Source of the DNA: a virus
Taxonomy: Duplodnaviria > Heunggongvirae > Uroviricota > Caudoviricetes
IMG/VR virus record: IMGVR_UViG_2663763286_000019
Reading direction: 5' to 3' (one strand)
Length of the DNA: 4,701 nt
This document shows positions 1 to 4,701 of this stretch, piece after piece; position 1 is the first letter of the stretch, and every line of letters begins with the position of its first letter. A program made the translations under genes and the position numbers. Below the pieces are notes generated by a model that was not told the DNA's origin, made no database searches, and was given only the letters and a program-made list of their open reading frames with translations.

Positions 1-296
1 TTAACCAGTGGCCGGCACTGACGTACTATGCGAACGATGGCTGGGTGGAAATCGACAACAACATCGCTGAAAATGCCCTGCGGGCGGTCAGTCTGGGTCG
101 TAAAAACTTCCTGTTCTTCGGCTCTGATCATGGTGGTGAGCGGGGAGCGCTACTGTACAGCCTGATCGGGACGTGCAAACTGAATGACGTGGATCCAGAA
201 AGCTACCTTCGCCATGTGCTTGGCGTCATAGCAGACTGGCCGGTCAACCGGGTCAGCGAACTGCTTCCGTGGCGCATAGCACTGCCAGCTGAATAA
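1..296 (+). CDS. IS66-family transposase (TnpC-like), C-terminal fragment; 5' end lies upstream of the window
   Basis: Reading frame is open from the window edge (codons from position 3: [14 protein letters not shown]...) to TAA at 294-296. Translation ...[75 protein letters not shown]... matches, from memory, the conserved C-terminal region of IS66-family transposases. Not confirmed by search. Confidence 0.8.
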
Positions 297-333
297 CACA
301 TCCCCGTCAATACGGCCCTCGCTGTACGCTTAC
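1..333 (+). mobile_element. Right-hand end of an IS66-family insertion sequence (partial element)
   Basis: Transposase stop at 296 is followed 37 bp later by ...GTACGCTTAC (324-333), whose reverse complement begins GTAAGCG, the terminal sequence typical of IS66-family inverted repeats. The boundary at 333 is inferred; the other end and target-site duplication are outside the window. Confidence 0.55.
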
Positions 334-435: not shown

Positions 436-708
436 ATGGACAATAACACCATTTCTCTACAGGAGTTGCTCGACTGCATTTCAAAGCTTCGGGATGATGT
501 AAATGCCCTCACTGTTGCATTTTCATATTTGGCCTTATCAATTCCCAGAGAACAAATGCAACCAACACTGGCATCGCTCCTGCTTGAATCACGCAACCCC
601 AAATGGTCCCAGGAACAACAAAATTCTTTCAAGTGGCTGGCGGCATTACTGGAAGAAAAATATGCTGGTAAAATTACCATTTCGGTGGAGTCTTCAGAGA
701 ATCAGTAA
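436..708 (+). CDS. Hypothetical protein, 90 aa, predicted mostly helical; function unknown
   Basis: ATG at 436 preceded by AAGAGGA with about 6-nt spacing. No recognisable motif in MDNNTISLQELLDCISKLRDDVNALTVAFSYLALS... . Its 3' end overlaps the convergent 674-1018 gene by 35 bp, so one of the two ends may be miscalled. Confidence 0.4.
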   Translation: MDNNTISLQELLDCISKLRDDVNALTVAFSYLALSIPREQMQPTLASLLLESRNPKWSQEQQNSFKWLAALLEEKYAGKITISVESSENQ

Positions 709-1022: not shown

Positions 1023-1238
1023 TTACTCTCCCCGTGCAACCTTACGCTTGTCTTCTTTAATCTTGAAATAAAGGTTTGTCAGGTACGTCAGCAAGCCAAA
1101 TACCAGACTACCCAGCACACCGATTGCAGCCCACTGTGACGGAGTTACTTTATCGAGTAACTGCAATGCCCAGAAACCAGCATTACCAGCCGATGTGCCA
1201 TAGGCGATACCTGTTGTTAACTTATCCATTGATTTCAT
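1023..1238 (-). CDS. essQ: Class II holin (phage 21 S-type pinholin) with dual-start motif
   Basis: 71 aa, [71 protein letters not shown], closely resembling the phage 21 S / EssD / EssQ pinholin as I recall it. Met1-Lys-Ser-Met4 dual start (antiholin/holin), two hydrophobic segments, charged C-terminus. SD GGGGTGAGGA upstream of the ATG at 1238. Confidence 0.85.
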
Positions 1239-1456
1239 ATCCTCACCCCGATGTACACAGATGGTGCAATATGTTTGAAAAGATCGGAGTCTATGGGGTA
1301 GTTTTTATAGCAAACGTTGTTCTCAACGGCTCTAAAAAACAGACACATTAAAAATGTGGGTAATTATTTTAAAAGAAAATCATATATTAAATAATAATAC
1401 GAGATATGTTTTCATATTTAGTGTACTGTATACGGCCATTTATACAGGAAAAGCCT

Positions 1457-1627
1457 ATGTCAGAACGTAAAGACTCAAAATCACGCCGTAATTATCTCGT
1501 TAAATGTTCCTGCCCAAACTGCACCCAAGAGTCAGAACACAGTTTTTCAAGAGTACAAAAAGGTGCCCTTTTGATCTGCCCTCATTGCAACAAAGTATTC
1601 CAGACAAATCTTAAAGCTGTAGCTTGA
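1457..1627 (+). CDS. ynfU: Small zinc-ribbon protein, 56 aa (CxCPxC ... CPHC), YnfU-like
   Basis: The ORF track starts at 1406, but the internal ATG at 1457 has AGGAAAAG 7 nt upstream. Product MSERKDSKSRRNYLVKCSCPNCTQESEHSFSRVQKGALLICPHCNKVFQTNLKAVA has two Cys pairs about 18 residues apart. The gene symbol rests on my recollection of a 56-aa putative zinc-binding protein at this position in Qin and is unverified. Confidence 0.5.
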   Translation: MSERKDSKSRRNYLVKCSCPNCTQESEHSFSRVQKGALLICPHCNKVFQTNLKAVA

Positions 1628-1686
1628 TTGATTTTATTCGTAACAAGTATTTTTTATATTTTAATAACATATTTAAAGCAGATAAT

Positions 1687-1709
1687 AAAAAACCCGCCTG
1701 AGCGGGTTT
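1687..1709. terminator. Intrinsic terminator hairpin, stronger on the minus strand (ends the cspB transcript)
   Basis: Stem CCCGC (1693-1697) / GCGGG (1702-1706), loop CTGA, flanked by A6 upstream and TTT downstream. On the minus strand the stem is followed by TTTTTTATTAT. It lies about 280 nt past the cspB stop. Confidence 0.6.
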
Positions 1710-1990
1710 AATATTGTGGTACTTTTTGTGGGAGTCATCCACTTACGCACTTTGTTTTGCTATGCCAGCAGTTAGCTTCTGCTGTAAAACTATTCATGCA
1801 GCAAACCTGCACTTCACCACAATGGTTAGCATACTTTTCCTGATTAAGTTATTGCCAAATATGCTGGCCATTGTTTCATGTATTGGACCTCCTTACTCTT
1901 TATTAAAGAGATCCAATATTCACCACTCTGTCTGTATCTCCACTCAGGCATCAGCCTTCTTCGTTATCGTATACAGACAAACTATGAATT

Positions 1991-2206
1991 TTAATCAGTA
2001 ATTATGACATTTGCTGCTGCAGGACCTTTAGCACCACTCTCTACAGAGAAGGTAACCTTTTGACCTTCAAATAAGGTTCGATAATTATCATTCTGAATCG
2101 CAGAAAAATGCACAAACACATCTTTACTACCATCAACAGGAGAAATAAAGCCAAAACCTTTATCAGCGTTAAACCATTTTACTAAACCAGTCATTTTATT
2201 TGACAT
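1991..2206 (-). CDS. cspB: Cold-shock protein CspB (CspA family, 71 aa)
   Basis: [71 protein letters not shown] carries the cold-shock domain RNP1/RNP2 motifs (KGFGFI, VFVHF). AAGGAA SD upstream of the ATG at 2206. The paralog call (cspB rather than cspA/G/I) relies on the C-terminus ...NVIITD and the prophage context. Confidence 0.85.
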
Positions 2207-2366
2207 TCTACATTCCTTAACTTGAGCCTTTCGGCATAAATGGCTTGTATAACAGAAACGACTTCGTACTTAATTGGAGAGACTCAAAGAAGGAATAAGT
2301 GAATAACACCTGAAATGAGAACTGCTTTAGTAAACTACTTCGTATATCGTCTGTTCTTCAAACCGA
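2207..2366 (-). promoter_or_regulatory. cspB long 5' UTR (about 160 nt) with cold-box-like element near its 5' end
   Basis: Minus-strand sequence GGTTTGAAGAACAGACG (2364-2348) resembles the cspA cold box (GGUUUGACGUACAGAC), and GCCGAAAGGC plus UUAAGGAAUG near the start codon resemble the cspA leader. Transcription start inferred at about 2366 by analogy with cspA. Confidence 0.55.
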
Positions 2367-2372
2367 CGCAAT

Positions 2373-2402
2373 CATTAACGCATAGTTGAACATATGAAGC
2401 AA
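2373..2402 (-). promoter_or_regulatory. Probable sigma70 promoter of cspB
   Basis: Minus strand: -35 TTGCTT (2402-2397), 17-bp spacer, -10 GTTAAT (2379-2374), mirroring the cspA promoter (TTGCAT / CTTAAT); AT-rich tract upstream. Positions are by analogy. Confidence 0.4.
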
Positions 2403-2506
2403 TGTTTATTTTAGACATCCAGCCATCTTCAACCCCATCAAAAAACTATAGCTTTCTTCAGGAACGTGTGTATAGTGCGCCAAGTTATCAGTATTAAGGA
2501 ATTTTT

Positions 2507-2719
2507 TTGTCCCGTAAAATGACAGGAATTCTCAAAACCTTTGACGGCAAAAGCGGCAAAGGTCTTATAACCCCATCCGATGGTCGTATCGATGTCCAGC
2601 TTCATGTTTCAGCGCTCAATCTCCGCGATGCAGAAGAAATTACCACCGGATTACGCGTGGAATTTTGCCGGATAAATGGTCTGCGTGGACCATCAGCTGC
2701 CAATGTTTACCTTTCATGA
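2507..2719 (+). CDS. cspF: CspF/CspH-type cold-shock-like protein (70 aa), non-canonical CspA paralog
   Basis: [70 protein letters not shown]. Apparent TTG start at 2507 with AAGGAA 5 nt upstream. Called cspF rather than cspH because it is divergent from cspB and sits between Q and the holin. Confidence 0.75.
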
Positions 2720-2773
2720 GCTATATTAAAGCTTTAACTTCAAGCCCCATCGAATCAAACATGGAGAGTTTTC

Positions 2774-2863
2774 ATGAATAAACCCGTCTGTCTTGATGAC
2801 TGGTTGATTGGCTTTAAAAGCTTATGCTGTACTTTGACCTTAATAGCTCTGCTAATAATGTAA
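2774..2863 (+). CDS. Candidate small hydrophobic protein, 29 aa ([29 protein letters not shown])
   Basis: ATG at 2774 with GGAG (2763-2766) 7 nt upstream, TAA at 2861-2863, 55 nt downstream of the cspF stop. The C-terminal about 20 residues are hydrophobic and could form one transmembrane helix. Short ORFs are frequent by chance in AT-rich DNA. Confidence 0.3.
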
Positions 2864-3011
2864 TAAGCAGACTCATTGTATCTATGGACATTGTACTGGA
2901 AGAAAGCATTTTAAACATCAGGCAAAAAACAAAGTCACCCGATAAATAATAAGTAAACTAACATGAATCCCGTAATGAGATTCAACATCTCTATTACCCT
3001 ATTTAAAGCAC

Positions 3012-3037
3012 AAAAACCCGCTCATCAGCGGGTTTTC
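3012..3037. terminator. Bidirectional intrinsic terminator: tR'-like on the minus strand after the late promoter, cspF terminator on the plus strand
   Basis: Stem CCCGC (3017-3021) / GCGGG (3028-3032), loop TCATCA, with A5 and T4 flanks extending the stem. The plus strand continues TTTTCTACTTTTTCTT; the minus strand continues TTTTTGTGCTTT. Confidence 0.65.
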
Positions 3038-3069
3038 TACTTTTTCTTAACTTCGGGTATACAAAGCCC

Positions 3070-3110
3070 ATCGTTGAAAAAATTTTATCCATATTTTTTG
3101 AAAAATGCAA
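3070..3110 (-). promoter_or_regulatory. Late promoter (pR'-like) with lambda-type AACGAT element in the initially transcribed region
   Basis: Minus strand: -35 TTGCAT (3110-3105), 17-bp spacer, -10 TAAAAT (3087-3082), then TTTTTTC and AACGATGGG (3075-3067). As I recall, AACGAT is the -10-like pause-inducing element at the start of the lambda pR' transcript where Q engages. Located 32 bp downstream of the Q stop. Confidence 0.5.
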
Positions 3111-3141: not shown

Positions 3142-3894
3142 TTATCTCGTCACCTTTCTCAATTGTGCTTCAGCGTAAGATTCCTCCTGCCAGCACTTTG
3201 TAACCAGTTTATCAATGACATTTGCATATCCTTTATACCACTGATAATCACTCAGGTCCGGTACCAGCTTCTGGACATGATGCCGCGCCAGTGTGGTTGG
3301 TAAACGACTAAACCGTTTTCCATTGCAACGCCCACAAATCTTATAAACAGGTGTGCCATGAAGCCGGGTCCTTTTTTCATCCAAGACAATACCTTTACCC
3401 TTACACCCTCTGCACGCTGTGCTGACTTCTCCCTTACCATGGCAATGCTGACATAGTTCCTTCACCCACTCTTCTTTGATAACAGATTCCCCGCTTCTGG
3501 AGTGTTTCACCACTTCGCGCAATACATTATGAAATCCAGTACCAGCACAATGCTCACAACGAGCCTTACTTGCCGCAGACCTGGAATAATCAGCAAAGGC
3601 AAAATTCACAAGGTAAGGAATAATCTGTAGCCGGGTTTCTTCACTCAATTTATTCAATGTCGGGTTATCCAGTGCCATCGCGTAATTGAGCAGACCTTCA
3701 ATCGCAAACTGAGGATCCTGAACACCAACTTTTGCCAGGAATAAGGCAAACCCAAGCGGTGCTTTCGACTGCACCATCCCCTGCGTAGCCATCACATCCG
3801 TAATCGTTAAACCACCAGAGCCTGTCGCCGGTGCGTCATCACTCAATTTTGGAGATTTTGGGGAGTAATATTTTGGTAAGGCTTCAAGGTTCAT
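3142..3894 (-). CDS. quuQ: Late-gene antitermination protein Q homolog (250 aa)
   Basis: 250-aa ORF immediately upstream of the pR'/tR'-like module and downstream of a DUF968 gene, matching the size and position of Qin QuuQ. GGAG SD 7 nt upstream of the ATG at 3894. Contains four CxxCxGxG-type repeats (CEHCAGTG, CQHCHGKG, CRGCKGKG, CGRCNGKR). Confidence 0.75.
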   Translation of the reverse strand: MNLEALPKYYSPKSPKLSDDAPATGSGGLTITDVMATQGMVQSKAPLGFALFLAKVGVQDPQFAIEGLLNYAMALDNPTLNKLSEETRLQIIPYLVNFAFADYSRSAASKARCEHCAGTGFHNVLREVVKHSRSGESVIKEEWVKELCQHCHGKGEVSTACRGCKGKGIVLDEKRTRLHGTPVYKICGRCNGKRFSRLPTTLARHHVQKLVPDLSDYQWYKGYANVIDKLVTKCWQEESYAEAQLRKVTR

Positions 3895-3907: not shown

Positions 3908-4701
3908 TTACGCCAGTACGCCTATTGCCAGCGCACGATCGATAAAACGAAATATCAGCTCCAGCTGGGAGCCATACTTCTCTTCAAATGCCACGGTATC
4001 CGCATGCAGCTCGTCGTGATGCTTTCTGCACAAAGGCAACACAAAGAGGTCATGCGCTTTTGTAGCCATTCCACCCTGACCGTGACCTATCAGGTGGTGG
4101 GGATCATCAGCAGGCTTTCCACAACATGCGCACGGCTGCGTCTTAACCCAGCGCGTGTACTTTTCATTAACCCAGCGGTGACGTTTTGGGCGTAACATAA
4201 AAGACTCCGGCGACTCCGGATCCACTTTCAGCGCCAGCACCTTTTTCGCCTTATCCTGGATGATGCTGGTGGCAGGAACCGAAGGCACAAGGTCACTTTC
4301 CCGGGTAACAGACGGCACAACAGGCTTCGGTAATCTCAGTGCCTTACGGGCTGCACTTTCCGGTAAGGCATCCGCCAGATCATTACGAATCAGCCACCAG
4401 CACAGTTCCGGCATTGTCACAACATGACTGTCATCAAAACCGAGATCCCGACGCACAACAGACAACACCCAGCGGGCACAGTTATCCGTTGCCATTGATT
4501 CCAGCCGTTCCGTGAACTGATCGCGCAGCTGGTTATCGCAGTGCCAGCACAGACGGATTGCGCCCGGAGCGTGTCGCATTGTTGTCATGTTCTCGCTGTG
4601 CCAGTCGGAATGAGGCCACTGGCAGCCTTTTTCACGAAGTAACCAGCTTTCAAGACATTCCACGCCACCAGCACGACGGATCACTGCCTCATTGCGGAAC
4701 A
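3908..4701 (-). CDS. ydfU: YdfU-like DUF968 protein, C-terminal about 260 aa; N-terminus beyond the window
   Basis: The frame stays open to the window edge (...FRNEAVIRRAGG...), so the M at 4684 in the ORF track is a GTG codon, not the true start. Cys/His-rich C-terminal region (CACCGKPADDPHH ... CRKHHDELH). Stop TAA at 3908-3910 is 13 nt before the Q start, so the pair is probably co-transcribed. Identification is by context and size as recalled for Qin. Confidence 0.7.
   Translation of the reverse strand, partial: FRNEAVIRRAGGVECLESWLLREKGCQWPHSDWHSENMTTMRHAPGAIRLCWHCDNQLRDQFTERLESMATDNCARWVLSVVRRDLGFDDSHVVTMPELCWWLIRNDLADALPESAARKALRLPKPVVPSVTRESDLVPSVPATSIIQDKAKKVLALKVDPESPESFMLRPKRHRWVNEKYTRWVKTQPCACCGKPADDPHHLIGHGQGGMATKAHDLFVLPLCRKHHDELHADTVAFEEKYGSQLELIFRFIDRALAIGVLA

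What the first reader, a model, noticed from the sequence alone, without database searches (positions are those of the whole stretch)
1687..3037. csp moron bounded by inverted copies of a near-identical hairpin, with about 280-290 nt 3' regions on both csp genes
The hairpins at 1687-1709 and 3012-3037 share the AAACCCGC...GCGGGTTT stem. Read in opposite orientation they are nearly the same terminator (AAACCCGC-TCAG-GCGGGTTTTTT versus AAACCCGC-TCATCA-GCGGGTTTT), and each sits about 280-290 nt beyond the stop codon of the csp gene pointing at it. The layout is a symmetric, self-insulated divergent cassette inside the late operon. The unusually long 3' regions could carry 3'UTR-derived sRNAs or small proteins, and the inverted hairpins could mark the moron acquisition boundaries.
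Basis: seen in the sequence. Interest (0 to 1): 0.45.

Follow-up and report, generated by a model that had tools for sequence, protein, structure and literature searches.

The report
Prophage cold-shock insert, terminators, new RNA
The two look-alike hairpins are two unrelated ordinary transcription terminators flanking a known cold-shock gene insert in a Qin-type E. coli prophage, but the long tail behind cspB hides a conserved, multi-helix folded RNA that no RNA database or paper I could search describes.

Summary
The window is the Q-to-holin late region of a Qin-type lambdoid prophage: essQ, ynfU, cspB, cspF, ynfS, Q. It is 99.8% identical to E. coli 2013C-4974 and has the K-12 Qin gene order. 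Both hairpins exist as described, 281 and 292 nt beyond the csp stop codons.

They are not copies of one element.
- **Hairpin 2 (3012-3037)** travels with the Q gene and its late promoter in prophages that lack the csp genes. In K-12 Term-seq it ends minus-strand RNA. It is the promoter-proximal late terminator tR'.
- **Hairpin 1 (1687-1709)** is the terminator between convergent ynfU and cspB. Its orthologues follow csp genes on phage-plasmids that have no Q. In K-12 only plus-strand (ynfU) 3' ends are listed there.

The low-GC insert spans about 1251-3008, so ynfU lies inside it. Hairpin 1 is therefore not a boundary.

The cspF tail encodes the known small protein YnfS. The cspB tail (1869-1713, minus strand) carries a roughly 157-nt RNA with five helices. 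It is conserved behind cspA-type genes in more than ten enterobacterial genera, with covariation, no conserved ORF and no Rfam match. The main K-12 cspB-strand 3' end lies just 5' of it. Its function is unknown.

The parts
1023..1238 (-). essQ class II holin, first lysis gene of the late operon
   Evidence: ORF. Annotated essQ in the 99.8%-identical genome and in K-12.
1251..3008 (.). Low-GC cold-shock insert (moron) between tR' and the holin: ynfU, hairpin 1, structured RNA, cspB, cspF, ynfS
   Evidence: Homology to csp-less prophages stops at about 1247-1266 on the holin side and at 3008-3012 on the Q side. GC is 33-44% against 43-55% in the flanks. The same layout occurs in phage 2H10.
1457..1627 (+). 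ynfU, 56-aa zinc-knuckle small protein, convergent with cspB
   Evidence: Pfam PF23499, E 2.5e-31. Annotated. Detected as a tagged protein in 10.1101/511675. YnfU homologues sit convergent right after the RNA element in 11 loci of other genera.
1687..1709 (.). Hairpin 1: bidirectional intrinsic terminator between convergent ynfU and the cspB unit
   Evidence: Folds at -15.4 and -15.5 kcal/mol on the two strands. It has a 6-U tail on the minus strand. The K-12 orthologue has a plus-strand Term-seq 3' end at 1641060. Orthologous terminators follow the element on phage-plasmids and in Superficieibacter.
1713..1869 (-). Conserved structured RNA in the distal cspB 3' region. Helices: P0 1869-1859/1834-1824; P1 1823-1815/1721-1713; P2 1812-1796; P3 1784-1766 (invariant loop AAGCUAA); invariant linker AAAGUGCGUAAG; P4 1742-1728
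   Evidence: The alignment holds 30 distinct sequences from more than ten genera. 94% of cells are paired and 12 pairs change on both sides; 0 of 500 shuffles reach the observed values and slid controls give 24-57% paired. RNAalifold predicts the same four helices. P0 is an 11-bp hairpin in most lineages. The covariance model scores 139.8 bits here, with one hit per csp locus. The single-sequence fold agrees. There is no Rfam match and no conserved ORF.
1876..1878 (-). Position equivalent to the major K-12 cspB-strand RNA 3' ends (1641224/1641226), 6-8 nt 5' of P0
   Evidence: Term-seq table of PMC7815308, all three growth conditions. Mapped to the window by sequence identity.
1884..1974 (-). 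Proximal cspB 3' UTR hairpins: a stem-loop at 1974-1928 and a second hairpin ending about 5-7 nt before the mapped 3' end
   Evidence: The Rfam cspA model aligns its terminator stem to 1973-1928. Fold of the whole 3' region: z -7.0.
1991..2206 (-). cspB, 71-aa CspA-family cold-shock protein
   Evidence: ORF. Pfam CSD, E 1.1e-31. Annotated.
2207..2367 (-). cspB 5' UTR, cspA-type thermoregulator
   Evidence: Rfam RF01766, 156.7 bits (gathering score 78), match 1928-2367.
2507..2719 (+). cspF, 70-aa CspA-family protein, divergent from cspB
   Evidence: ORF. Pfam CSD. Annotated. Window 2092-2715 is about 78% identical to the core cspG-cspH pair.
2774..2863 (+). ynfS, 29-aa small protein inside the 'cspF 3' region'
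   Evidence: Pfam PF23697, E 1.2e-19. K-12 b4750. Protein detection is cited in 10.1101/511675.
3012..3037 (.). Hairpin 2: tR', the promoter-proximal terminator of the late promoter (minus strand). By sequence it is also a terminator for cspF-ynfS on the plus strand
   Evidence: It is conserved with Q and the promoter in csp-less prophages, and homology ends right after its U-run. The K-12 minus-strand Term-seq 3' end is at 1642356 in all three conditions. Folds at -21.3 kcal/mol on the minus strand and -14.4 on the plus strand.
3070..3110 (-). Predicted late promoter pR': -35 TTGCAT (3110-3105), 17-nt spacer, -10 TAAAAT (3087-3082), predicted start about A3075, -10-like AACGAT at +1 to +6 (3075-3070). 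The predicted short RNA runs 3075 to about 3008, roughly 68 nt
   Evidence: The hexamers and spacing are conserved downstream of Q in eight prophage variants. No start-site data were found. The role of AACGAT is an analogy to lambda pR' recalled from my own knowledge.
3142..3894 (-). Late-gene antiterminator Q (ydfT/quuQ)
   Evidence: Pfam PF03589, E 7e-53. Annotated.

Best explanation
The window is the late-gene control region of a Qin-type lambdoid prophage. Late transcription runs on the minus strand, in this order: Q, then the late promoter pR', then hairpin 2 (tR'), then a roughly 1.76-kb low-GC cold-shock insert, then the holin essQ.

Without Q, RNA polymerase starting at pR' makes a roughly 68-nt RNA that stops at hairpin 2. 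With Q, it would read through hairpin 2, cspB and hairpin 1 into the lysis genes. That step is inferred from the lambdoid paradigm.

The insert is an old cold-shock gene unit that also exists outside phages. It consists of a cspA-type gene with its thermoregulated 5' UTR, a divergent cspF-type gene, a convergent ynfU, and a conserved structured RNA between the csp gene and ynfU.

Hairpin 1 is that unit's own terminator. It is shared by the convergent ynfU and cspB transcripts and also insulates the holin from cspB transcription.

The two hairpins share a common enterobacterial terminator stem (AAACCCGC/GCGGGTTT) but have separate evolutionary histories.

The cspB 3' region has three parts:
1. 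Two proximal hairpins that define the stable mRNA 3' end seen at 37 C.
2. A roughly 157-nt five-helix RNA domain.
3. The terminator.

My favoured reading of the RNA domain is inferred, not shown. I think it is a cis-encoded 3' domain of cold-shock csp transcripts that is separated from the coding part by endonucleolytic processing just 5' of helix P0. It would control mRNA fate or downstream expression, rather than act as a classical Hfq seed-pairing sRNA.
For: Identity and gene order.

Hairpin 2 as tR':
- The Q-downstream alignment shows a conserved TTGCAT-17-TAAAAT promoter and a terminator about 45 nt later in csp-bearing and csp-less prophages. One variant (L008) has a different stem at the same place. 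Similarity ends right after the U-run.
- Homology breakpoints fall at query positions 289-293, which is window 3008-3012.
- K-12 Term-seq lists a minus-strand 3' end at 1642356 in three conditions and no plus-strand end there.

Hairpin 1 as the csp/ynfU terminator:
- Orthologous AAACCCGCC...GGCGGGTTT terminators follow the element on E. coli and Klebsiella phage-plasmids and in Superficieibacter.
- K-12 Term-seq lists a plus-strand 3' end at 1641060.

Insert limits and composition. ynfU always accompanies cspB in 80 of 80 loci.

Structured RNA:
- Covariation counts and an independent RNAalifold prediction of the same helices.
- P0 hairpin.
- The covariance model gives exactly one hit per csp locus and none near cspA, cspG/H, cspI or in csp-less prophages.
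- A cspA-thermoregulator mRNA lies directly upstream in 18 of 20 loci at Rfam's gathering score; L137 and L159 have no such hit.
- G-U pairs fit only the csp strand.
- No frame is open in more than 7 of 30 sequences.
- No Rfam family matches.

Processing: the strong K-12 minus-strand 3' ends at 1641224/6 lie 6-8 nt 5' of P0 and 5-7 nt after a stable hairpin.
Against: - No transcription start data for pR' were found. The promoter matches only 3 of 6 in the -35 hexamer and was not called by the consensus scan.
- Q-dependent read-through is not tested.
- Term-seq lists no minus-strand 3' end at hairpin 1 and no plus-strand 3' end at hairpin 2. Their activity on those strands rests on sequence alone. 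All data are from 37 C cultures, not cold shock.
- No RNA species corresponding to the structured domain has been observed. It could be rapidly degraded.
- The 11-nt direct flank match (TATTTAAAGCA) next to both hairpins is unexplained by independent origin.
- The alignment of the RNA was collected with an exact pattern on two invariant boxes. Those boxes are invariant by construction, and distant relatives are missing.
- The proposed pseudoknot is only weakly supported.
Confidence: 0.8

Rival explanations
1. The two hairpins are inverted copies of one terminator that mark the ends of the acquired csp cassette, and each terminates the csp gene pointing at it.
For: The 8-bp stems are identical and the loops begin alike, TCAG against TCATCA. 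The distances from the stop codons are similar, 281 and 292 nt. The right end of the insert does coincide with hairpin 2.
Against: - Hairpin 2 occurs with Q in csp-less prophages.
- Hairpin 1 occurs behind csp genes without Q.
- The left end of the insert lies beyond ynfU.
- The flanks match in direct orientation, not inverted.
- Term-seq 3' ends are on the opposite strands.
- The two 3' regions are unrelated to each other.
- cspF-ynfS can be deleted while both hairpins stay, as in L150, L005 and L009.
Confidence: 0.05
2. The hairpins are direct repeats left by recombination. The csp unit entered the phage by a crossover within or next to a terminator of the same stem. This duplicated the terminator plus about 11 nt of flank (GCGGGTTTT..TGCTTTAAATA on the minus strand) on both sides of the cspB-cspF-ynfS segment.
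For: A direct-orientation flank match of 11 nt lies next to both hairpins (p about 0.004 in a shuffle test). It is also visible in K-12 and in L150. The donor csp units already carried a terminator with the same stem, which gives microhomology.
Against: The match is short and AT-rich, it is offset by a 6-nt insertion, and four flank comparisons were tried. No empty-site prophage with Q-tR'-ynfU-holin and no csp gene was found: 80 of 80 ynfU loci have cspB. ynfU is a partner of the csp unit in other genera as well. ynfU therefore came in with the unit rather than being phage backbone.
Confidence: 0.1
3. The conserved RNA domain is a trans-acting small RNA derived from the 3' UTR, like CpxQ, SroC or the moron-borne IpeX. 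It would be released by RNase E and act by base pairing with Hfq or ProQ.
For: It sits at the 3' end of an mRNA and is followed by a terminator with a U-tail in Escherichia. A strong upstream 3' end just 5' of it suggests cleavage there. It has invariant single-stranded stretches, AAGCUAA and AAAGUGCGUAAG.
Against: - No minus-strand 3' end at hairpin 1 appears in the curated Term-seq lists.
- No cspB 3' region entry appears in the RIL-seq-based table searched. That table lists cspF.cspB.IGR, cspF.ydfT.IGR and cspB CDS only.
- Most genera lack the terminator hairpin after the domain.
- Five helices with conserved junctions is unlike typical Hfq sRNAs.
Confidence: 0.15
4. The conserved domain is a leader or intercistronic regulator for the gene downstream of it, not a feature of cspB. 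In about 20 loci of other genera a conserved 75-aa ORF follows on the same strand, sometimes only about 50-75 nt after the domain.
For: The conserved 75-aa ORF lies downstream on the same strand in L013, L014, L136, L137, L139, L142, L143, L146-L149, L151-L157, L159, L160 and L162. Highly conserved junction nucleotides are typical of ligand- or protein-binding leaders.
Against: The Escherichia and Klebsiella-plasmid lineages keep the domain without that ORF and put a terminator right after it. In 11 loci a convergent ynfU lies between the domain and the ORF. The only universal neighbour is the upstream csp mRNA.
Confidence: 0.15
5. The conservation in 1713-1869 reflects a protein-coding gene, for example the 95-codon plus-strand ORF 1714-2001, or a DNA site, and not an RNA structure.
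For: An ORF of 95 codons spans the region on the plus strand of the window. Some records annotate hypothetical proteins over it.
Against: No frame on either strand is open in more than 7 of 30 aligned sequences. Twelve base pairs change on both sides while staying paired. Frequent G-U pairs would be A-C mismatches on the other strand.
Confidence: 0.03

Closest known systems
Lambda pR'-6S RNA-tR' late control region, and the Stx-phage short pR' transcript StxS (from my own knowledge of the literature)
   Same: A promoter lies directly after the Q gene, followed by a nearby intrinsic terminator. In the lysogen this gives a short RNA, and Q-modified polymerase overrides the terminator. Here the promoter and terminator are conserved with Q, and a minus-strand 3' end is mapped at the hairpin in K-12. 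An AACGAT -10-like element lies at the predicted +1 to +6, as I recall for lambda.
   Different: The Q here is a 250-aa PF03589 protein. The predicted RNA is about 68 nt rather than 194 nt. The same hairpin also faces the convergent cspF-ynfS unit. No start-site or Q-dependence data exist for this module.
Morons in the Q-to-holin interval of lambdoid phages (stx in Stx phages; nmpC/lc with the IpeX RNA in DLP12/PA-2)
   Same: This is a compositionally distinct insert with its own regulation, sitting between tR' and the lysis genes. Related prophages carry other cargo at the same place, such as a DNA methyltransferase and hypothetical genes.
   Different: The cargo is a cold-shock unit (ynfU, cspB, cspF, ynfS) that also exists on plasmids, on phage-plasmids and in other genera. 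Part of it is transcribed against the late operon.
Core-genome cspG-cspH divergent pair of E. coli
   Same: It is about 78% identical to window 2092-2715, from most of cspB through the intergenic promoters to the end of cspF. Both carry a cspA-type thermoregulated 5' UTR.
   Different: cspG is followed by ymcF-ymcE-gnsA, not by the structured RNA. The covariance model finds no copy there or near cspA or cspI. There is no AAACCCGC hairpin pair.
Rfam RF01766 cspA thermoregulator
   Same: The cspB mRNA matches it at 156.7 bits. So do the csp mRNAs upstream of the element in 18 of 20 other loci.
   Different: That model covers the 5' UTR, the coding region and a short terminator. The conserved domain described here lies further 3' and is not part of any Rfam model.
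3' UTR-derived regulatory RNAs of enterobacteria (CpxQ, SroC, and similar)
   Same: The location is at the 3' end of an mRNA, with a likely cleavage just upstream.
   Different: It is much more structured, with five helices. There is no evidence of Hfq or ProQ association, and no stable species has been observed. It is tied to one gene family across mobile elements.

Membership tests
Intrinsic (Rho-independent) terminator | G+C-rich stem-loop directly followed by a U-run | tested here: met
   Hairpin 1 on the minus strand has an 8-bp stem plus UUUUUU. Hairpin 2 on the minus strand has a 10-bp stem plus UUUUUGUGCUUU, and on the plus strand UUUUCUACUUUUU. Hairpin 1 on the plus strand has only UUUAAUAUU.
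Intrinsic (Rho-independent) terminator | RNA 3' ends map to the U-run in vivo | tested here: inconclusive
   In the K-12 orthologues, 3' ends are listed at hairpin 1 on the plus strand only (1641060) and at hairpin 2 on the minus strand only (1642356). None is listed for the csp-sense strands, and no cold-shock data exist.
Lambdoid late control module (Q, pR', tR') | Promoter and terminator lie immediately downstream of Q and are inherited with Q | tested here: met
   The alignment of eight Q-downstream regions shows a conserved TTGCAT-17-TAAAAT-type promoter and a terminator about 45 nt later, independent of the cargo beyond it.
Lambdoid late control module (Q, pR', tR') | Transcription starts at pR' and pauses at a -10-like element in the initial transcribed region | not testable with these tools
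   AACGAT lies at the predicted +1 to +6. No start-site table could be reached.
Lambdoid late control module (Q, pR', tR') | Q-dependent read-through of the terminator | not testable with these tools
   This needs in vitro or in vivo transcription with QuuQ.
Phage moron | Extra DNA between two genes that are adjacent or differently filled in related phages, with distinct composition | tested here: met
   Breakpoints lie at about 1251 and about 3008. Other cargo occupies the site in L006-L008. GC is 33-44% against 43-55%.
Phage moron | Own promoter and terminator, expressed from the repressed prophage | tested here: inconclusive
   The cspB mRNA matches the cspA thermoregulator. K-12 Term-seq shows abundant cspB-strand RNA and ynfU termination in a lysogen, and YnfS and YnfU proteins have been detected. 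Promoters were not mapped here.
Repeat pair marking an insertion (inverted or direct terminal repeats) | The two copies are related by descent and delimit the unit that is gained or lost | tested here: not met
   Each hairpin has orthologues without the other. The left limit of the insert is not at hairpin 1. Deletion variants remove cspF-ynfS without using the hairpins.
Any described RNA family (Rfam 15) for window 1713-1869 | Match to a curated covariance model | tested here: not met
   There is no match at gathering score in the window or in 20 homologous loci. At E up to 10 only weak terminator-driven hits appear. ARAGORN finds no tRNA or tmRNA.
Conserved structured RNA (general criteria) | Base pairs maintained by compensatory changes across diverged sequences, with no conserved ORF | tested here: met
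   Twelve of 31 pairs change on both sides and 94% of cells are paired, against 24-57% in slid controls. 0 of 500 shuffles reach the observed values for four of the five measures, and 8 of 500 for further pair types. RNAalifold agrees, and no ORF is conserved. Caveat: the sequences are related, and two boxes were fixed by the search pattern.
Hfq-dependent 3' UTR-derived sRNA | A stable processed RNA ending at the terminator and found in Hfq interaction data | tested here: inconclusive
   No minus-strand 3' end at hairpin 1 appears in the curated Term-seq lists. The cspB 3' region is absent from the RIL-seq-derived table searched. Absence from curated lists is weak evidence.

The most novel reading that the evidence does not exclude
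The roughly 157-nt five-helix domain behind cspB (window 1869-1713, minus strand) is an undescribed class of structured RNA present in E. coli K-12 itself. It is dedicated to mobile cspA-type cold-shock genes across Enterobacteriaceae. Its invariant junctions and loops suggest that it binds a specific partner: a protein, a ribonuclease such as RNase P or RNase E, or a small molecule. On this reading it would set the fate of the cold-shock transcript, or act on its own after being cut from it.
Probability: 0.45. Interest if true: 0.75.

Novelty: new member of a known kind. Interest (0 to 1): 0.5.

Why it matters
The hairpin pair itself is ordinary. It shows how two unrelated terminators with the same common stem can look like a repeat. 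It also shows that the Qin late terminator tR' doubles as the border of a cold-shock insert.

The useful result is the conserved folded RNA in the cspB tail. It lies in the best-studied bacterial genome and is carried by inducible phages, phage-plasmids and a conjugative plasmid. It always follows a thermoregulated csp mRNA and has no database entry.

If it is functional, it adds a 3'-end layer to cold-shock gene control, which has so far been explained through the 5' UTR. It would also give a defined, testable RNA of about 160 nt, with clear compensatory mutants to make.

Tried and rejected
- **Long-range pairing between the element and the csp 5' UTR.** RNAduplex energies are within the shuffle range in eight homologues. 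Rejected.
- **tRNA-like gene.** ARAGORN finds nothing. The four-way junction has long linkers, so this was not pursued.
- **Pseudoknot between the P2-P3 linker and the P4 loop.** 83% of cells are paired and slid controls are lower, but 4-10 of 500 shuffles reach the observed values. Kept as tentative only.
- **Antisense 95-codon ORF or other coding explanation.** Rejected.
- **The conserved 75-aa downstream ORF as YdfK.** There is no similarity and no Pfam or NCBIfam hit.
- **Looking for ynfU without csp as an empty site.** None among the 80 IMG/VR loci. The only E. coli cases are IS-mediated deletions or insertions.
- **Start-site data for pR'.** One paper is not held. Two Cappable-seq supplements have no entries for the region.
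- **Literature searches.** I searched for the invariant boxes, for cspB 3' UTR RNAs, and in three genome-wide ncRNA discovery papers. Nothing relevant was found.
- **Similarity between the two 3' regions.** None.


Full report
**What the window is**

The 4701-base window is 99.8% identical over its full length to the chromosome of E. coli 2013C-4974. Its annotation there and the K-12 Qin prophage annotation give the same gene order.

| Window coordinates | Strand | Feature |
|---|---|---|
| 1-333 | n/a | End of an IS66-family element |
| 436-708 | + | Unnamed ORF |
| 674-1018 | - | ydfR |
| 1023-1238 | - | Holin essQ |
| 1457-1627 | + | ynfU |
| 1991-2206 | - | cspB |
| 2507-2719 | + | cspF |
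| 2774-2863 | + | ynfS |
| 3142-3894 | - | Late antiterminator Q (ydfT/quuQ) |
| from 3908 | - | DUF968 gene |

Pfam confirms Q (PF03589), YnfU, YnfS and the two cold-shock domains. The cspB mRNA matches Rfam's cspA thermoregulator at 156.7 bits. The same Q-cspF-cspB-holin layout is present in the classified phage 2H10 and in other sequenced phages. About 1409 of 5426 complete E. coli genomes hold the whole 1640-3090 block.

**The observation**

Each folds far better than shuffled controls on both strands. They lie 281 and 292 nt beyond the cspB and cspF stop codons.

The stem AAACCCGC/GCGGGTTT is palindromic, so the hairpin itself carries no orientation. The flanks match only in direct orientation: TATTTAAAGCA precedes both on the plus strand, with p about 0.004 for that flank pair, while the inverted flank comparisons are at chance. 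The two 3' regions show no similarity to each other.

**Hairpin 2 is the late terminator tR'**

Many E. coli prophages have a close relative of this Q gene but no csp genes. Their similarity to the window starts at window 3008-3012, right at the hairpin, or at 3059. I fetched three such prophages. They carry a methyltransferase and hypothetical genes, or go almost directly to a holin.

I aligned the region downstream of Q in eight variants. The alignment shows:
- a conserved TTGCAT, a 17-nt spacer and TAAAAT (or TAAGAT, TAATAT, TAGGAT);
- then AACGAT or AATGAT;
- then, about 45 nt further on, a terminator hairpin followed by a U-run;
- after the U-run the sequences diverge completely.

Two csp-less prophages have the same stem as the window. 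One has a different stem (CCTCGC-UUCG-GCGGGG) at the same position, which argues that a terminator is required there.

Published Term-seq for K-12 (PMC7815308, supplementary file 1) lists a minus-strand 3' end at 1642356 in all three growth conditions. That position is ...GCGGGUUUUGUGC, the U-run of hairpin 2 read on the minus strand. The table lists no plus-strand 3' end there.

Hairpin 2 therefore belongs to the Q module and terminates a short RNA, predicted to run from 3075 to 3008 (about 68 nt), from the promoter downstream of Q. This corresponds to pR'-tR' of lambda. The AACGAT at the predicted +1 to +6 resembles the -10-like pause element I recall for lambda pR'. That point rests on my own knowledge and was not tested here. 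By sequence, the hairpin can also stop the convergent cspF-ynfS transcript, but no such 3' end is listed.

**Hairpin 1 belongs to the csp/ynfU unit**

On the holin side, csp-less prophages lose similarity at window 1247-1266. A direct alignment puts the junction about 13 nt upstream of the holin start, at about 1251. ynfU and hairpin 1 therefore lie inside the insert. All 80 YnfU-encoding IMG/VR loci examined carry hairpin 1, the RNA element and cspB.

A search with the ynfU-hairpin region also hit about 90 E. coli plasmids at 79% identity over the hairpin plus the adjacent roughly 90 nt. These are phage-plasmids. On them the match lies behind a cspG-like gene and next to dnaE, with no Q or holin nearby. 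The same is true on Klebsiella phage-plasmids.

In those elements a terminator AAACCCGCC-loop-GGCGGGTTTT occupies the position of hairpin 1. A similar one occurs in Superficieibacter. Hairpin 1 is thus orthologous to the csp unit's own terminator. K-12 Term-seq lists a plus-strand 3' end at 1641060, the ynfU direction, at this hairpin and no minus-strand end.

**The hairpins are not copies**

Each hairpin has positional orthologues in elements that lack the other. Deletion variants exist that lose ynfS and the cspF 3' end (L005, L009) or all of cspF-ynfS (L150) while keeping both hairpins.

The 11-nt direct flank match remains unexplained. It could be chance. It could also be a trace of recombination at similar terminators when the unit was captured. 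I rate that at about 0.1.

**The insert**

The segment from about 1251 to 3008 has 33-44% GC, against 43-55% on either side. Window 2092-2715 is about 78% identical to the core cspG-cspH pair.

In other genera the same partners recur:
- a csp gene with a cspA-type thermoregulator (18 of 20 loci at Rfam's gathering score);
- a convergent YnfU homologue right after the conserved RNA (11 loci);
- a conserved 75-aa ORF on the csp strand (about 20 loci; no Pfam or NCBIfam match), and in five loci the STnc100 RNA further on.

The phage therefore captured a pre-existing cold-shock gene unit.

**The long 3' regions**

The cspF tail contains ynfS. This known 29-aa protein has strong ribosome start peaks and a detectable tagged product (10.1101/511675).

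The cspB tail is highly structured overall (z -7.0). Its CDS-proximal part is poorly conserved. Its distal part is about 79% conserved in the phage-plasmid homologues, with many changes that keep base pairs intact.

I collected homologues with an exact pattern on two invariant boxes. This gave 120 IMG/VR stretches and 29 species-representative genome stretches from Escherichia, Shigella, Enterobacter, Kosakonia, Phytobacter, Kluyvera, Superficieibacter, Pseudescherichia, Raoultella, Leclercia and Atlantibacter. A CspA-family ORF lies 129-222 nt upstream of the first invariant box, on the same strand, wherever enough sequence is available.

Thirty distinct sequences were aligned. The proposed structure is:
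- a closing helix P1;
- three hairpins P2-P4, with P3 carrying the invariant loop AAGCUAA;
- an invariant linker AAAGUGCGUAAG between P3 and P4;
- an 11-bp hairpin P0 directly 5' of P1.

The support for this structure is as follows.

| Test | Result |
|---|---|
| Cells forming standard pairs | 94% (slid controls 24-57%) |
| Pairs changed on both sides | 12 |
| Shuffles reaching the observed values | 0 of 500 on four of five measures; 8 of 500 for further pair types |
| RNAalifold | Independently returns P1-P4 |
| Minimum-free-energy fold of the window sequence | Returns P0, P2, P3, P4, most of P1 and the terminator |
| G-U pairs | Fit only the csp strand |
| Reading frames | None open in more than 7 of 30 sequences |
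| Covariance model R1, window hit | 139.8 bits |
| Covariance model R1, specificity | One hit in every csp-element locus; none near cspA, cspG/H, cspI or in csp-less prophages |
| Rfam 15 | No match at gathering score in the window or 20 homologous loci; only weak terminator-driven hits at E up to 10 |
| Literature searches | Nothing found |

**What the RNA domain might do**

The strongest cspB-strand 3' ends in K-12 Term-seq are at 1641224 and 1641226, in all three conditions. They lie 5-7 nt after a stable hairpin and 6-8 nt before P0. No minus-strand end is listed at hairpin 1.

The simplest reading is that transcripts are cut between the proximal hairpin and P0. This would leave a hairpin-protected cspB mRNA and release, or destroy, the structured domain. 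That is an inference.

I found no pairing between the domain and the 5' UTR, no tRNA-like call, and no sign of it in a RIL-seq-derived table. The alternatives are a released trans-acting RNA or a leader for the downstream 75-aa ORF, and both remain open.

**Verdict**

The hairpin pair is ordinary and already explained by known biology. It consists of a late terminator and a convergent-gene terminator that happen to share a common stem. One tail holds a known small protein. The other holds a well-supported, apparently undescribed structured RNA.

Limits of the analysis:
- The RNA alignment was gathered with a pattern that fixes two boxes, and the sequences are related.
- The transcript data are from 37 C cultures only.
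- No promoter mapping, Q assay or RNA detection for the domain was available.

Noticed in passing
window 1-333; L001 3984-6296: The window starts inside an IS66-family element (ISEc8; its transposase is annotated with an internal stop). In the closest genome it sits between ydfR and the lysozyme rrrQ, splitting the lysis cassette of this prophage copy. Most other genomes match the window only from position 334 on.
   Followed up: partly
window 436-708 (+): A 90-aa ORF, annotated 'hypothetical protein', lies next to the IS end and overlaps the 3' end of ydfR on the other strand. It has no Pfam match.
   Followed up: partly
window 1844-1879 (-): An 11-codon ORF (MKQWPAYLAIT) with a near-perfect Shine-Dalgarno sequence (TAAGGAGGT, 8-nt spacing) overlaps the 5' strand of helix P0. 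The major K-12 cspB-strand 3' ends fall on its start codon. The peptide differs in K-12 (MKQWLAYLAKS), and the ATG and Shine-Dalgarno sequence are absent in other lineages.
   Followed up: partly
L004 about 1747-2960; L089; L011 3395-3853: Insertion sequences repeatedly hit this small region. An IS3-family element and another insertion lie exactly at the 5' edge of helix P1, removing P0. IS200C is inserted at hairpin 1 in several genomes.
   Followed up: no
L147 about 4454-4632 (Raoultella lignicola): The RNA domain carries an expanded tandem repeat (CCTGAAAG)n in place of its 5' half, but still scores 97.6 bits with the model.
   Followed up: no
L013, L014, L136-L162 (same strand, 50-640 nt after the RNA domain): A conserved 75-aa ORF (MKKVIIFFN...EYPNGE...MSAGFPSLTGDH...SQEILDAA.KYL) follows the domain in about 20 loci of other genera. 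It has no Pfam or NCBIfam family and is not YdfK. In five loci the STnc100 RNA follows further downstream, suggesting a larger cold-shock gene island.
   Followed up: partly
K-12 1642188 (-), equivalent to window about 2840 (-): Term-seq lists a minus-strand 3' end antisense to ynfS in stationary phase only. This implies some read-through of tR' in the lysogen. A terminator-like hairpin on the minus strand also lies at window 2984-2964, just after tR'.
   Followed up: no
K-12 1643015 (+), antisense to Q: The Rho-termination table of PMC7815308 lists a plus-strand Rho-dependent region antisense to ydfT. Some plus-strand transcription therefore passes hairpin 2 or starts beyond it.
   Followed up: no
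window 3008-3075 (-): The RIL-seq-derived table of PMC8175672 lists 'cspF.ydfT.IGR' with 70 chimeric fragments and two partners. The short pR'-tR' RNA may therefore bind Hfq, as reported for StxS of Stx phages.
   Followed up: no
L163: A contig binned as a Veillonella parvula MAG carries the E. coli-type cspB, RNA domain and hairpin 1 at full identity. This is almost certainly a mis-binned Escherichia contig.
   Followed up: no
PMC7815308 supplementary file 1: In this Term-seq table, minus-strand read counts (minimum about 23,000) are on a much higher scale than plus-strand counts (minimum about 850). Counts should not be compared across strands.
   Followed up: no
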